The notes: a model not told the origin generated them from the letters alone. A DNA stretch of 64,000 nucleotides from Promethearchaeota archaeon (GCA_019057865.1 JAHLWP010000010.1:1-64000), one strand, 5' to 3'; positions 236-64,000 are shown, numbered from the stretch's first letter. Translations and numbers: made by a program.

Positions 236-344
236 AAATTTAAATCTTTACTTTGATGTCCAAAATGATCAATTTTAACTAATTTTTGTAGAAAAAGGAA
301 AAAAAAAGAGATTCAAAAGTAATTAAACCGACTAAATCTTTAAA
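236..344. repeat. 109-bp intergenic direct repeat, copy 1
   Basis: Ungapped match to 2139-2247 with about 11 mismatches by eye. Confidence 0.9.
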
Positions 345-10407: not shown

Positions 10408-11388
10408 TTAAAATATAGTTGATAAAATATACCAAGATAATAACATAGTACCAATTCCAAGAAAGATTGAAATTGGTAGTCCAGGTAAAATTTTATTTCG
10501 CGATAATCCTGAAATTGTGATACCTGTCCCAATTATTATTGCAATCGCAGTAAAAAGCATAACAACTATATTATTTGTCTGTACAAGTGCACTAGATGTA
10601 AGCATACTATAGAAGGCTAAATCACCTATTCCAATTTCTAATTTAGAAGTATCATAGATAAGTTCCCCACTTTTAATTTTCTCTCTCTGTTCTTCTTCAA
10701 GTAAATTTTCTGGATCATCAGAATTAGAAACAATATCGATCATCTGTTTAATTGGTCCCTTTTTAGACAACACAGCATATAGATCCCAACAAGAAATACC
10801 AATTAAAATGGCCAAAGTAGTCCAAAGTGGCATAAATACTCCCATTGAAGCGCCTATTAATAAACCAATATATAAAACTATAAAATTTTTTATATAAATT
10901 GAGACAGAAGTAAAATATTTATAAAGCATAATTATAGTTAAGACAGCTGACAAAAAGATTAGCTCATAATAAAAAAGATAAAATAATATAGGAGATTTAT
11001 AGAAAATTAGAAATATTATAATCTGTCCAAAAAACCAAGTTTGAAAAAATCCAATTAAACCAAAGCTTATCCCAAATATAAATCTTAAAATATCAATTCC
11101 TTTTCGTTTTACAAAATAAATTATTACAAATCCAGATACTGCTGCTAAAGCTGTATATATTAGACCATTTAATAGACCACCTAGAGCTCCCAATTCACTT
11201 TCAGAAAAATAACCACCTTCTATCTGAACACCCGCTTCAATATATGTTAAATAGGCTAATAATCCAGCTACAAGCACTACAATAATTATTGGGAGTGAAT
11301 ATAGTTTTCTTTTGATTCTATATGTTGGAAAAAAGTGCGGAATAAAATCTTTTTCAACAATATCTTTTTCTGAAGCTTTATCTTCCAT
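10408..11388 (-). CDS. Presenilin-like GxGD intramembrane aspartyl protease (family A22)
   Basis: WDLYAV (YD-equivalent), GIGD, LPGLP (PAL-like); multiple transmembrane segments. Confidence 0.9.
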   Translation of the reverse strand: MEDKASEKDIVEKDFIPHFFPTYRIKRKLYSLPIIIVVLVAGLLAYLTYIEAGVQIEGGYFSESELGALGGLLNGLIYTALAAVSGFVIIYFVKRKGIDILRFIFGISFGLIGFFQTWFFGQIIIFLIFYKSPILFYLFYYELIFLSAVLTIIMLYKYFTSVSIYIKNFIVLYIGLLIGASMGVFMPLWTTLAILIGISCWDLYAVLSKKGPIKQMIDIVSNSDDPENLLEEEQREKIKSGELIYDTSKLEIGIGDLAFYSMLTSSALVQTNNIVVMLFTAIAIIIGTGITISGLSRNKILPGLPISIFLGIGTMLLSWYILSTIF

Positions 11389-55115: not shown

Positions 55116-55868
55116 TTACAAACCTGGAATTCCTGTCCGTTTGTGGATGATCTCCAGTATCTTGGTGATAAATGTGATTGTAATTAAAAAGATCATAGTT
55201 GTAAGGACGTATGTAGTGAGTGGATAAAACGTCTTATGAGCGATAACGTCTGCCTGAAAAAATAATTCCTCCACTCCTCCAATAAAATAGATAAGGACAG
55301 TATATTTTGGAAGATAAGCAGCTTCATTGGACCAAGCAGGGATAACACGGCGCAAAGCTTGTGGTAATACGATATGGTGAATACTAGCAATACGTGACAT
55401 TCCCAGCGAGCGTGCAGCTTCTAATTACCCAGTTCCAACAGAAATAATGGCTCCACGGAGATATTCAGCTTGATAAACCGCACTATTAAGACTCAGCGTG
55501 AGTATACCCACAAATATTGGGTAATCCATAAGCTTCAGAGTGATGTCTCTATCTAGCATTCTAAAGCTAGTCTTTAAACTCCAACTTCCAACAGGGATAT
55601 TTAAGCTAACGGGAAGAAAATAAATGAATAATAATTGCGCGAGCAAAGGTGTACCACGTATAATCTCAATGTACCCAGTAGCAATCCGTGAAAGAATCCT
55701 CCCTCCGTACTGGCGAAGTATGCTAAGGATAAGACCAAGCAAAAAGCCCATCAAAAGTGCGCATCCATACAACCACATCGTCAATAAAAAACCTGAGAAG
55801 ATATGATCCCAGGATTTCAGTACAGCAAAAATTTCCTTAATGGGGTTGGGACTAGCTTGAAATATCAT
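55116..55868 (-). pseudogene. Amino-acid ABC permease with one premature TAA
   Basis: SVGTG*LEAARSLGMS versus SVGTEQLVAAQSLGMS in the intact paralog; both halves are in the same frame. Confidence 0.88.
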
Positions 55869-62619: not shown

Positions 62620-63114
62620 TTACTTCCCTCCTTCATATTCAGGTTTATTAATCCAGTTTTCATATTCATCTTCTGGAACAAAGAAGAAATCTGTCATTTT
62701 CCCTTCTCTTACTTTGTTAAAAACAGCTCTAACTCTTCTTCCTTTTTTAATCTTAGAAGGAACTAAATTTTCTGAAAAAATTCCTTGAAGTAATGCGGTT
62801 TCTGCTCCATCTAATTTTATAAAGCCTATACTATAAGGTACGGCTTTTATAAATGCAGAAGTTGTATACCATACAATTGTGCTAACTTCTATAGTTCCTG
62901 TTTGGTTCAATTCTACCCATTTAGCAGGAGCAAAACAATCAGAGCAATTGATCCTTGGAGGCATCCATGTCTTTCCACATTTAGTACATTTTGTGCCCAA
63001 TAGTTTTTTATTTTTCATTAATTCTAAAAAGAATTTGGATTGTCCTCCCATTGTGTATTTGTAGTTGATCCTTATTACATCTCTTATTTGATGCTCCTGA
63101 AATTCTTCGCTCAT
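62620..63114 (-). CDS. DUF35 Zn-ribbon/OB-fold protein
   Basis: CTKCGKTWMPPRINCSDC; ATGA overlap with the upstream thiolase. Confidence 0.9.
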   Translation of the reverse strand: MSEEFQEHQIRDVIRINYKYTMGGQSKFFLELMKNKKLLGTKCTKCGKTWMPPRINCSDCFAPAKWVELNQTGTIEVSTIVWYTTSAFIKAVPYSIGFIKLDGAETALLQGIFSENLVPSKIKKGRRVRAVFNKVREGKMTDFFFVPEDEYENWINKPEYEGGK

Positions 63115-64000
63115 GGTTTTTTCAACCCCTCCTCATTTGTCATTACTATAACCGCAGCATATGCCGCTCCAGGGCCTCCTATTGAGTGAGCAATAGCTCT
63201 GCCATTTTCAATTGTTTTTATTTGATGCTTTCCAGCATCCTCTCTAAGCTGAAGTGCTGCTTCACCTGTAGACATTATCCCGGTAGCACCAACAGCATGA
63301 CCACATCCAATTAATCCACCGCAAGGGCAACATGGTAATTCACCATCTAACCATGGCCCCTCCCCTGGTTTTTCAAAGGATTTTTCAATCCATGGACCAC
63401 CTTCCCCAAAAGGAACAAACCCAAGCTCCTCATAAGAGATGACTTCTTATCCAGAGAATATCGAACTGATATTCATTGTCCTGAGAAGGCATCATGGAGC
63501 TCTGCTAAATCAATTTGTTCCTTTATTTTATTATAGTCTAAGCCTGCCATCTTATACGCGGCTTTTGCAGCAAAAATATTTGAATATAACCTTCCCATAT
63601 CTTCTCTATTTCCTATAAAACAATCGGTATTTGCTGCTGCGACACCAGTAATCCAAATCGGCTTTTCAATTTTTAATTCTCTTACTTTTTCTTCACTTGC
63701 GAGAATTAATGCTGCTGATGCTTCTGAATATAAACAACAATCAAGCATCTTGAAGGGATGACAAATTATCCTTGAGTATAGGACATCATCTAAGGAAATT
63801 TTCATAGGGGATTGTGCTTTTGGATTGAGCATAGCATTCCCATGGTTTTTTACGCTAACTTTAGCCAATTTTAACTAATTGTTAAGATTTAAAGCCATTT
63901 GTTCTTCGGTAGGATTACCGAATTCTTCATAATGGGCGTTTACCATAGAAACGTACGAGGTTGCTGCCATCATTCCCATAGGATATTTACGAAATATGTA
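63111..64000 (-). CDS. Thiolase-domain protein (5' end outside window) split by candidate BHB introns
   Basis: Removing 63861-63890 and 63449-63477 gives a continuous frame ...EEQMALVSVKNHGNA...DCCLYSE...ELHDAFSGQEVISYEELGF...GGLIGCGHAVGATG...AHSIGG...KKP*. Confidence 0.88.
63449..63477 (-). other. Candidate 29-nt BHB intron in thiolase mRNA
   Basis: Exon helix GAUG-c-CUUCU/AGAAG-u-CAUC, central helix CAGG/CUGG (one A.G mismatch), bulges AC|A and AU|A, intron hairpin GAAUAUC-AGUUC-GAUAUUC. Confidence 0.75.
63861..63890 (-). other. Candidate 30-nt BHB intron in thiolase mRNA
   Basis: Exon helix AAU/GUU, central helix GGCU/GGCU, bulges UU|A and AA|A, intron hairpin AAUcUUAAC-AAUUA-GUUAAaAUU; contains an in-frame UAG. 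Confidence 0.8.

What the first reader, a model, noticed from the sequence alone, without database searches (positions are those of the whole stretch)
63861..63890. Intron A: canonical BHB geometry, 30 nt, hides an in-frame UAG
Sense RNA reads CA-AAU GGCU UU|A AAUCUUAAC AAUUA GUUAAAAUU GGCU AA|A GUU-AGC. The central helix GGCU:GGCU pairs G-U, G-C, C-G, U-G. Both bulges are exactly 3 nt, the intron stem is 8/9 bp and the exon stem is 3 bp. The predicted spliced product is AUG GCU UUA GUU (MALVSVKN). Reverting a simple duplication would give MAKVSVKN instead, so the two models are distinguishable.
Basis: partly seen in the sequence, partly recalled or inferred. Interest (0 to 1): 0.9.

Follow-up and report, generated by a model that had tools for sequence, protein, structure and literature searches.

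The report
tRNA-type mini-intron in Asgard thiolase gene
A 30-base hairpin that breaks a thiolase gene of a Lokiarchaeia (Asgard) archaeon has the exact shape and cut sites of a tRNA-type (bulge-helix-bulge) intron; it is one of three in this gene and of dozens in relatives, so these archaea very probably splice ordinary protein messages, although no RNA data were available to show it.

Summary
Window 63861-63890 (minus strand) is a 30-nt insert with an in-frame TAG.

- The gene has three such inserts: C 31 nt, A 30 nt, B 29 nt.
- Cutting after the second bulge nucleotide restores the orthologous protein exactly. Site A gives MA-L-VSVKN; orthologues have L or Y, never K. Close strains in four independent metagenome studies carry intronless alleles reading GCTTTA|GTT.
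- Among 81 orthologues, 19 carry 34 inserts of 28-35 nt at about 10 positions. All have a BHB register at the orthologue-defined junction (H 4/4 in 26, 3/4 in 8). A mirrored control never reaches 4/4.
- All 19 genes heal to full ORFs, and their divergence is third-codon-position biased.
- The intron A family (7 genomes) shows compensatory stem changes and a patchy distribution on the gene tree.
- EndA alpha and beta and RtcB are present.

Against: BHB is not the MFE fold, a crude genome-wide scan was uninformative, and no RNA run holds the locus.

This scan has noted similar mRNA introns on other DNA. The paper library searched describes only cbf5.

The parts
63861..63890 (-). Intron A: 30 nt, phase 2, in-frame TAG. 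It comprises the third nucleotide of the 5' bulge, the 23-nt hairpin (9-nt arms, loop AAUUA), the Cb strand GGCU (63863-63866) and the first two nucleotides of the 3' bulge.
63893..63899 (-). 5' exon side of the motif: outer-helix strand AAU (63897-63899) and central-helix strand GGCU (63893-63896). The bulge nucleotides UU follow at 63891-63892.
   Evidence: H helix 100% paired in 7 homologous introns
63857..63860 (-). 3' exon side: third bulge nucleotide A (63860, which supplies the third base of the Leu codon) and outer-helix strand GUU (63857-63859).
63449..63477 (-). Intron B: 29 nt, phase 1, frameshift plus TGA. Motif: CAGG AC|A ... CUGG AU|A. H is 3/4 with an A.G mismatch, the hairpin is GAAUAUC-AGUUC-GAUAUUC, and the outer helix CUUCU:AGAAG is 5 bp.
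63986..64000 (-). 3' part of intron C: 31 nt in all (C7 63986-64016), phase 0. Motif: UACG AA|A ... CGUA AA|U, with H 4/4. The rest lies beyond the window edge.
63891..63985 (-). Exon 2 of the thiolase-like gene (95 nt).
63478..63860 (-). Exon 3 (383 nt).
63111..63448 (-). Exon 4 (338 nt including the stop). It matches the thiolase C-terminal domain (PF22691) and overlaps the start of the next gene by ATGA.
62620..63114 (-). Downstream partner gene: DUF35/ChsH2-like zinc-ribbon plus OB-fold protein (PF12172, PF01796). It is intact.

Best explanation
[quoted passage not shown] It is the second of three introns: C 31 nt, A 30 nt, B 29 nt. There are four exons, and the spliced ORF is 419 aa.

Proposed mechanism:
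1. In the transcript, the last four exon bases before the cut (GGCU) pair with the GGCU near the 3' end of the intron.
2. This 4-bp helix is flanked by two 3-nt bulges on opposite strands, by the intron's own 9-bp hairpin, and by a short exon-exon helix.
3. The heterotetrameric (alpha-beta)2 splicing endonuclease EndA cuts after the second nucleotide of each bulge.
4. RtcB joins the exons to read GCU UUA GUU (Ala-Leu-Val), and the intron is released, probably as a circle.
5. Unspliced mRNA ends at the intron's TAG.

Shown here: the geometry, the exact restoration of the orthologous protein at the rule-defined cuts, conservation with covariation, purifying selection on intron-bearing genes, and the presence of the enzymes.

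Inferred, not shown: that cleavage and ligation happen, and that EndA and RtcB do it.

The introns look mobile or are often lost precisely, because carriers are scattered over the gene tree.
For: 1. Junction test.
- Orthologues lack A, B and C. They read MA[Y/L]VSVKN, DMTYEYPMG and AFSGQEVISYEE. The BHB cuts give exactly these sequences.
- The direct-repeat deletion gives K at site A and an extra K at site C.

2. Independent DNA.
- Contigs from four other sediment-metagenome studies carry the inserts.
- Close strains show presence/absence: one has A but lacks C (net -31 nt), one has C but lacks A (sense GCTTTA|GTT), and one lacks B.

3. Geometry is non-random.
- At 7 orthologue-defined junctions (thiolase A, B, C and four in a leuS copy), H = 4,3,4,4,4,3,4. 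The mirrored topology reaches at most 3.
- The genome null is P(4/4) = 0.026 per register.
- In leuS the rule gives MQRNWIG, and N is invariant in 22 orthologues.

4. Family-wide survey.
- 34 inserts of 28-35 nt occur at about 10 positions in 19 of 81 orthologues.
- A BHB register lies among the orthologue-consistent cuts in all 34: 26 with H 4/4, 8 with 3/4. The mirrored control has 0 with 4/4.

5. Gene integrity.
- All 19 interrupted genes heal to 398-437 aa ORFs with no other lesion.
- Differences between intron-bearing genes are third-position biased, for example 46/21/195 at codon positions 1/2/3.
- In a roughly 10% diverged strain that carries B, 26 of 33 listed changes are at third positions.

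6. Covariation in the intron A family (7 genomes).
- 4 of 9 hairpin pairs change on both sides.
- 90.9% of cells are paired, against 20-46% when the partner is slid.
- 0 of 500 shuffles reach the observed score, and H is 100% paired.

7. Machinery and context.
- There are two EndA paralogues. One has the Tyr/His/Lys residues and the other lacks the His.
- RtcB is present.
- Asgard EndA is reported as the broad-specificity (alpha-beta)2 type (PMC5829648).
- ARAGORN finds only 18 tRNA genes in 4.26 Mb, 12 of them called with introns. This fits an intron-rich Asgard genome (PMC11291895).
Against: - There is no RNA evidence. No listed sequencing run on record as RNA holds the locus, so splicing itself is unobserved.
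- The BHB is not the minimum-free-energy fold of the 50-nt stretch. Fold energies are not better than shuffles (z = -0.71, -0.05, -0.88).
- H of intron A rests on two G.U pairs, and the outer helix h is only 3 bp. The third h pair is unpaired in 4 of 7 homologues.
- The 3' part of the inserts resembles the 5' exon end. In B, TTCTCAGGACAA matches TTCTCTGGATAA at 10 of 12 positions. This looks like a target duplication and is not explained by splicing alone.
- The 34 inserts are not independent; they fall into about 13 families.
- G000 holds several thiolase paralogues, so this copy need not be essential.
Confidence: 0.8

Rival explanations
1. Programmed translational bypassing, as in the 'byp' elements of yeast mitochondria or phage T4 gene 60. 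The ribosome would take off at a codon before the insert and land on a matching codon after it, so the insert stays in the mRNA.
For: - The size (about 30 nt), an internal hairpin and a stop soon after the take-off point resemble byps (my own knowledge of Lang et al. 2014 and T4 gene 60; not read here).
- Matching codon pairs exist at A (GCU...GCU) and C (AAA...AAA).
Against: - The hop would give MAKVS at A, an extra Lys at C, and MQRPWIG in leuS. Orthologues and intronless alleles have L/Y, no extra residue, and an invariant N.
- B has no matching landing codon; the only GGA is followed by TAA.
- Bypassing does not predict a 4-bp exon-intron helix with two 3-nt bulges at 34 of 34 inserts.
Confidence: 0.05
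2. The inserts are DNA-level insertions (tiny mobile hairpins with target duplication) that are not removed, and the gene is a recent pseudogene.
For: - Imperfect direct repeats flank the inserts.
- Presence/absence varies among strains, and the distribution on the gene tree is patchy.
- Other thiolase paralogues exist in the genome.
Against: - 19 interrupted orthologues with 1-4 inserts each have no other frameshift or stop.
- Intron-bearing genes diverge mostly at third codon positions.
- All inserts have the BHB in the sense orientation, and the mirrored geometry never reaches 4/4.
- The 3' end of each insert pairs with its own exon, and there are compensatory changes.
- No other copy of A, B or C exists in the genome.
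Confidence: 0.05
3. The inserts are removed from the RNA, but by something other than EndA and RtcB, such as another structure-specific nuclease or an unknown editing or ligation route. The BHB-like shape would then be a by-product.
For: - No enzyme assay exists.
- The BHB is not the predicted MFE structure.
- Several H helices have one mismatch.
Against: - The cut positions implied by orthologues coincide with the EndA rule (after the second nucleotide of each 3-nt bulge across a 4-bp helix) at all 34 inserts.
- The cognate enzymes are encoded.
- The same machinery is documented for cbf5 mRNA in Crenarchaeota (PMC2738675).
Confidence: 0.08
4. Assembly or sequencing artefact.
For: The genome is a metagenome-assembled draft of 87 contigs with 5% estimated contamination.
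Against: - Identical inserts are present in contigs from independent studies.
- Homologous inserts occur in six other MAGs.
Confidence: 0.01

Closest known systems
BHB intron in cbf5 (pseudouridine synthase) pre-mRNA of Crenarchaeota (Watanabe 2002; Yoshinari 2006; Yokobori 2009, PMC2738675)
   Same: - It is a short intron in an archaeal protein-coding gene with a BHB motif.
- It is removed by the hetero-oligomeric splicing endonuclease.
- It shows lineage-specific presence and absence.
   Different: - cbf5 carries a single intron in one RNA-modification gene of thermophilic Crenarchaeota, and its splicing was shown experimentally.
- Here a metabolic (thiolase-like) gene of Lokiarchaeia carries three introns.
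- Its orthologues carry up to four at about 10 positions.
- Other genes of the genome carry them too, and splicing is not yet observed.
tRNA introns of Asgard archaea (92-95% of tRNA genes in Atabeyarchaeia and Freyarchaeia, often several per gene and at non-canonical positions; PMC11291895; bioRxiv 10.64898/2026.10.13.758758)
   Same: - The same motif and presumably the same enzymes.
- The same habit of several introns per gene, with repeated gains.
   Different: - The host RNA is a translated mRNA, so splicing must restore a reading frame.
[quoted passage not shown]
- Those papers do not report protein-coding introns.
Unconventional cytoplasmic splicing of HAC1/XBP1 mRNA (Ire1 endonuclease plus tRNA ligase or RtcB); my own knowledge, not read here
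   Same: - A protein endonuclease cuts a small intron (26 nt in XBP1) out of an mRNA at paired stem-loops.
- A tRNA-type ligase (RtcB in animals) joins the exons.
   Different: - The nuclease (Ire1) and its recognition motif differ.
- It is a regulated stress switch in one gene, not a genome-wide class of introns.
Translational bypass elements (byps) of Magnusiomyces mitochondria and T4 gene 60; my own knowledge
   Same: - 27-55 nt inserts with hairpins and stops inside coding sequences.
- A mobile-looking distribution.
   Different: - Bypass inserts stay in the mRNA and need matched take-off and landing codons.
- That model predicts the wrong residues here.

Membership tests
Archaeal BHB (splicing-endonuclease) intron | A 4-bp central helix with one 3-nt bulge on each strand, where the central helix is formed by the 5' exon end and the 3' intron end. 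| tested here: met
   - GGCU:GGCU with bulges UUA and AAA.
- H is 4/4 at the orthologue-defined register.
- H is 100% paired in 7 homologues.
Archaeal BHB (splicing-endonuclease) intron | Cuts after the second nucleotide of each bulge give the functional exon junction. | tested here: met
   - The product GCT TTA GTT (Leu) matches orthologues (L/Y) and an intronless allele.
- The same rule fits all 34 inserts of the gene family and 4 in leuS.
Archaeal BHB (splicing-endonuclease) intron | Flanking helices: h' (intron) and h (exon-exon). | tested here: met
   - h' has 8 of 9 bp, and 4 pairs show changes on both sides across homologues.
- h is only 3 bp, with 81% of cells paired. It is weak, as in relaxed motifs.
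Archaeal BHB (splicing-endonuclease) intron | The genome encodes a splicing endonuclease of suitable specificity and an RtcB ligase. | tested here: met
   - Two PF01974 paralogues: a catalytic-type alpha and a His-less beta.
- One RtcB.
- Asgard EndA is described as (alpha-beta)2 with the L1 loop (PMC5829648).
Archaeal BHB (splicing-endonuclease) intron | The spliced RNA and the excised (circular) intron are observed. | not testable with these tools
   No RNA run holds the locus.
Archaeal BHB (splicing-endonuclease) intron | The motif is the thermodynamically favoured fold. This is not strictly defining. | tested here: not met
   The MFE of the 50-nt stretch pairs UGGCUUUA with UAAAGUUA instead, and z = -0.71.
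Translational bypass element | Matched take-off and landing codons whose use gives the functional protein. | tested here: not met
   - The GCU/GCU hop would give Lys where orthologues have Leu or Tyr.
- B has no usable landing codon.
- leuS would get Pro for an invariant Asn.
MITE/IS-type DNA insertion | A multi-copy element with fixed ends and a target-site duplication, inserted in either orientation. | tested here: not met
   - No second copy of A, B or C exists in 4.26 Mb.
- The ends differ per site and pair with the local exon.
- All 34 inserts are in the sense orientation.
- The direct repeats are imperfect.

The most novel reading that the evidence does not exclude
Lokiarchaeia, and probably other Asgard archaea, carry a population of mobile BHB micro-introns that colonise ordinary protein-coding genes. 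Gains and/or precise losses recur at hot-spot sites. The result is multi-exon genes whose expression depends on the tRNA-splicing endonuclease and RtcB. That would be a protein-only mRNA splicing system in the closest prokaryotic relatives of eukaryotes.
Probability: 0.55. Interest if true: 0.9.

Novelty: new variant of a known kind. Interest (0 to 1): 0.8.

Why it matters
In the papers I could search, endonuclease-spliced introns in archaeal protein-coding genes are documented for one gene, cbf5 of Crenarchaeota. This finding differs in several ways:
- An ordinary metabolic gene of an Asgard archaeon carries three such introns.
- Its orthologues in Promethearchaeota MAGs carry 34 at about 10 positions.
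- A leuS copy, a Rab-like GTPase and other genes of the same genome carry them too.

If splicing is confirmed, four things follow:
1. Many 'pseudogenes' and 'frameshifts' in Asgard MAGs are intact genes. This changes metabolic reconstructions.
2. mRNA splicing with several introns per gene exists in the sister group of eukaryotes, using the tRNA-splicing enzymes. This bears on how intron-bearing genes and the separation of RNA processing from translation arose.
3. The patchy distribution offers a system for studying how BHB introns are gained, which is unknown.
4. The test is simple and direct: junction reads, an EndA assay, or junction peptides.

Tried and rejected
1. RNA evidence. The look-up of sequencing runs listed no RNA holder, so expression and splicing could not be examined. 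This is not evidence either way.

2. Genome-wide ORF-healing plus BHB scan. There are about 2,900 'healable' sites per strand, mostly gene-gene junctions. The true BHB topology was not enriched over the mirrored control (123 against 133 sites with H = 4). In a 30% GC genome the scan was too noisy to see tens of real introns, so no genome-wide count is given.

3. Paralogue-based junction scoring. The paralogues are too diverged to fix junctions, except at leuS site 2. I replaced it with orthologues.

4. Automatic hairpin filter at paralogue-chained sites. It missed the known intron B because of a 1-nt bulge, so I dropped it.

5. 'Essential gene' argument from leuS. It is weakened because G000 also has an intact archaeal-type leuS on C1 and a truncated third copy on C73.

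6. Profilin (PF00235) as an Asgard marker. The control did not ring, so the result is uninformative. Taxonomy was taken instead from the record titles of relatives.

7. Sequence family. Introns A, B and C have no other copies in the genome, so they are not a repeat family.

8. DNA-level excision (ciliate-IES-like). The intronless contigs in the metagenomes differ in their flanks and so come from other strains. Nothing supports this idea, and it was not pursued.

9. Pfam found no family for exon 3 alone or for the 123-aa ORF downstream of DUF35.

Full report
**What is there**

The finding lies in a gene on the minus strand. Its last exon matches the thiolase C-terminal domain (PF22691). The next gene is a DUF35/ChsH2-type zinc-ribbon and OB-fold protein. 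This is the usual archaeal thiolase-like/DUF35 pair.

- AAU GGCU UU|A AAUCUUAAC AAUUA GUUAAAAUU GGCU AA|A GUU.
- The 30 nt between the bars are window 63861-63890. They hold an in-frame TAG.
- The order of elements is the true BHB topology. The central helix is formed by the end of the 5' exon and the 3' end of the intron, and each bulge lies 3' of its central-helix strand.

The gene is interrupted three times, not once:

| Intron | Coordinates | Length | Effect |
|---|---|---|---|
| C | C7 63986-64016, straddling the window edge | 31 nt | phase 0 |
| A | window 63861-63890 | 30 nt | phase 2, in-frame TAG |
| B | window 63449-63477 | 29 nt | phase 1, frameshift plus TGA |

Removing them at the BHB cuts gives one ORF of 419 aa with exons of 444, 95, 383 and 338 nt.

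**The organism**

The window is contig 7 of a 4.26-Mb draft of 87 contigs at about 30% GC. The closest orthologues come from records titled Promethearchaeota or Promethearchaeia archaeon, that is Lokiarchaeia of the Asgard group, from marine sediments.

ARAGORN finds only 18 tRNA genes, 12 of them called with introns. This fits an intron-rich Asgard genome (PMC11291895; bioRxiv 10.64898/2026.10.13.758758).

The splicing machinery is encoded:
- Two splicing-endonuclease paralogues are present. One has the Tyr/His/Lys residues; the other lacks the His.
- One RtcB is present.
- Asgard EndA is described as the broad-specificity (alpha-beta)2 type (PMC5829648).

Nineteen same-genus orthologues (85-91% amino-acid identity) have uninterrupted frames of 413-435 aa. 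In the DNA alignment none of them carries A, B or C.

- Site A. They encode MA-Y-VSVKN or MA-L-VSVKN, never K. Two read ATGGCATTAGTT. The BHB cut (UU|A ... AA|A) gives GCT TTA GTT, which is Leu. Deleting one copy of the direct repeat gives Lys.
- Site C. Orthologues read DMTYEYPMG. The BHB cut (UACG AA|A ... CGUA AA|U, 31 nt) gives exactly this. The direct-repeat deletion (28 nt) adds a Lys.
- Site B. The 29-nt removal gives AFSGQEVISYEE, as in all orthologues.

**Independent DNA**

I laid contigs from four other sediment-metagenome studies on the locus.
- The inserts are present in these contigs, some at 100% identity.
- Close strains differ in which inserts they carry:
  - One contig has A but lacks C (35 nt replaced by 4, net -31).
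  - One has C but lacks A. Its sense strand reads ATGGCTTTA|GTTTCT, which is MALVSV.
  - One lacks B (GGACAA|GAGGTA).
- A contig about 10% diverged from G000 carries B. Of its 33 listed differences in exon 3, 26 fall on third codon positions. The protein has therefore been kept under selection while the frameshifting insert was in place.

**Is the geometry more than chance?**

I fixed the junctions from orthologues only. I then asked whether one of the few cut registers that give the orthologous protein has the BHB arrangement: a 4-bp H helix, 3-nt bulges, and cuts after the second bulge nucleotide.

- Seven sites were tested: thiolase A, B and C, and four inserts in a leuS copy on contig 49. 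H is 4,3,4 and 4,4,3,4.
- A mirrored topology (bulges on the wrong side) reaches at most 3.
- A random register in this genome has H 4/4 with probability 0.026, and 3/4 or better with probability 0.174. There were 13 allowed registers in all.
- At leuS site 2 the rule gives MQRNWIG. Asn is invariant in 22 orthologues, and other in-frame deletions give P, K or T.

**Family-wide survey**

The search for related loci returned 80 orthologous loci. An alignment with G000 shows the following:
- There are 34 inserts of 28-35 nt at about 10 discrete positions, in 19 of 81 genes.
- In all 34, the orthologue-consistent registers (2.6 per insert on average) include a BHB register. H is 4/4 in 26 and 3/4 in 8. 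The mirrored control never reaches 4/4.
- The inserts fall into about 13 families by position and sequence. Nine of these have H 4/4.
- The exon-intron helix covaries. At position 411, GAAC:GUUU becomes GAGC:GCUU.
- After removal at these cuts, all 19 genes give ORFs of 398-437 aa with no other stop or frameshift.
- Divergence between intron-bearing genes is concentrated at third codon positions. G000 against L099, both with intron A, gives 46/21/195 differences at positions 1/2/3.

**Intron A as a family**

Six other genomes carry an intron at exactly the A site (L099, L088, L108, L104, L069, L138).
- Four of the nine hairpin pairs change on both sides, for example AAUCUUAAC/GUUAAAAUU in G000 against CAUUAAAAC/GUUUUAAUG in L104.
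- H is 100% paired, and 0 of 500 shuffles reach the observed covariation score.
- Seven related sequences are few, but the signal fits an RNA structure under selection.
- On a tree of the gene built without the insert columns, the seven carriers need seven changes. They are no more clustered than shuffled labels.
- The intron has therefore either spread to the same site repeatedly or been lost precisely many times.
- Neighbouring positions (408/411, 473, 486/489, 949/953) hold different intron sequences, which suggests hot spots.

**Other genes of this genome**

I chained adjacent ORFs on paralogues without using any motif. This found a class of breaks with inserts of 28-34 nt:
- intron B;
- two breaks in the leuS copy, where four are seen with an orthologue as guide;
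- a Rab-like GTPase on contig 28, where I placed the BHB cut by eye and it gives TIGVDFHVK;
- one each on contigs 48 and 75.

I did not get a reliable genome-wide count. A crude ORF-healing plus BHB scan was swamped by gene-gene junctions and showed no excess over the mirrored control.

**Rivals**

- Translational bypassing predicts the wrong residues at A, C and leuS site 2, and it has no landing codon at B.
- A dead gene with unremoved insertions is contradicted by the intact frames of 19 interrupted orthologues, the third-position bias, the exclusive sense orientation, the site-specific pairing and the lack of any other copy.
- An assembly artefact is excluded.
- Removal by an enzyme other than EndA cannot be excluded without an assay.

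**Weak points**

- There is no RNA evidence.
- The BHB is not the predicted minimum-energy fold, and fold energies are not better than shuffles.
- H of intron A leans on two G.U pairs, and h is short.
- The 3' part of the inserts resembles the 5' exon end, like a diverged target duplication (B: 10 of 12). This may be a trace of how they arise and remains unexplained.

**Comparison with what is known**

In the library searched, endonuclease-spliced introns in archaeal protein-coding genes are documented only for cbf5 of Crenarchaeota (PMC2738675 and the references within it). Papers on Asgard tRNA introns do not mention protein-coding introns.

This case is a member of the BHB-intron kind by every feature I could test. 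Four things are new:
- the host, a metabolic gene of Lokiarchaeia;
- the number per gene;
- the many positions across orthologues;
- the mobile-looking distribution.

Earlier notes of this scan report similar inserts in other genes of this genome and in other archaea. One note claims an RNA-derived contig lacking such an intron in another Asgard archaeon. I did not check that claim.

**Verdict**

I put the probability that intron A is removed from the mRNA by the tRNA-splicing machinery at about 0.8.

Noticed in passing
window 55425-55427 (minus strand): A single in-frame TAA (context AIISVGTG*LEAARSLG) splits a gene whose two halves align collinearly to two paralogues. There is no insert, only the stop codon. 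It could be a pseudogene, a read-through or an error; I did not resolve which.
   Followed up: partly
window 270-284 and 2173-2187; also G000 C40, C54, C64, C78: A repeat of at least 6 copies (...ctttttctacaaaAATTAGTTAAAATTGatcattttggacatcaaag...) shares an exact 15-mer with the loop and 3' arm of intron A. This may be chance (E about 0.06) or a hint at the origin of the intron sequence.
   Followed up: no
G000 C49:4995-7935; C1:28378-31242; C73:12022-13029: There are three LeuRS-like loci. The first is an intact archaeal-type leuS on C1. The second is a full-length copy on C49 broken by four BHB micro-introns of 28, 34, 30 and 28 nt, only 65-68% identical to the genus orthologues. The third is a fragment of about 336 aa on C73, 94% identical to another genome's gene, which may be contamination or a remnant.
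   Followed up: partly
L020 (G002:C3) 1324-1430; L079, L117, L122, L148: Sister species carry different introns 3 nt away from site C (ACGU AU|A ... GCGG AA|G), and another 16 nt downstream (UGGG AA|A ... CCCC AU|U). The sites 408/411, 473, 486/489 and 949/953 look like insertion hot spots.
   Followed up: partly
G000 C28 ~11096-11130 (plus strand): A Rab-like small GTPase gene is split by a 31-nt hairpin. I placed the BHB cut by eye (GCGU AG|U ... GCGC AA|A), and it gives TIGVDFHVK. One search confirms H 4/4 and this peptide for that register. No orthologues were fetched for this site.
   Followed up: partly
G000 C14:44529, C23:79804, C23:7755, C37:8942 and others: Twenty in-frame TGA codons were found by paralogue chaining in conserved contexts (FPTDDC.I*; ADGV...G*). 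I read these contexts as HdrA- and VhuD/MvhD-like from memory; they look like selenocysteine codons.
   Followed up: no
all verified introns: The 5' bulge is usually AA|A or AA|U, so the 5' exon mostly ends in ...NNNN-AA. Mismatches in H are mostly at its outer pair (A.G, U.C). This could reflect an EndA preference or a preference of the insertion process.
   Followed up: no
whole window: ARAGORN finds no tRNA gene in the 64 kb window and only 18 in the 4.26-Mb genome. Most tRNA genes are presumably hidden by multiple or non-canonical introns.
   Followed up: no
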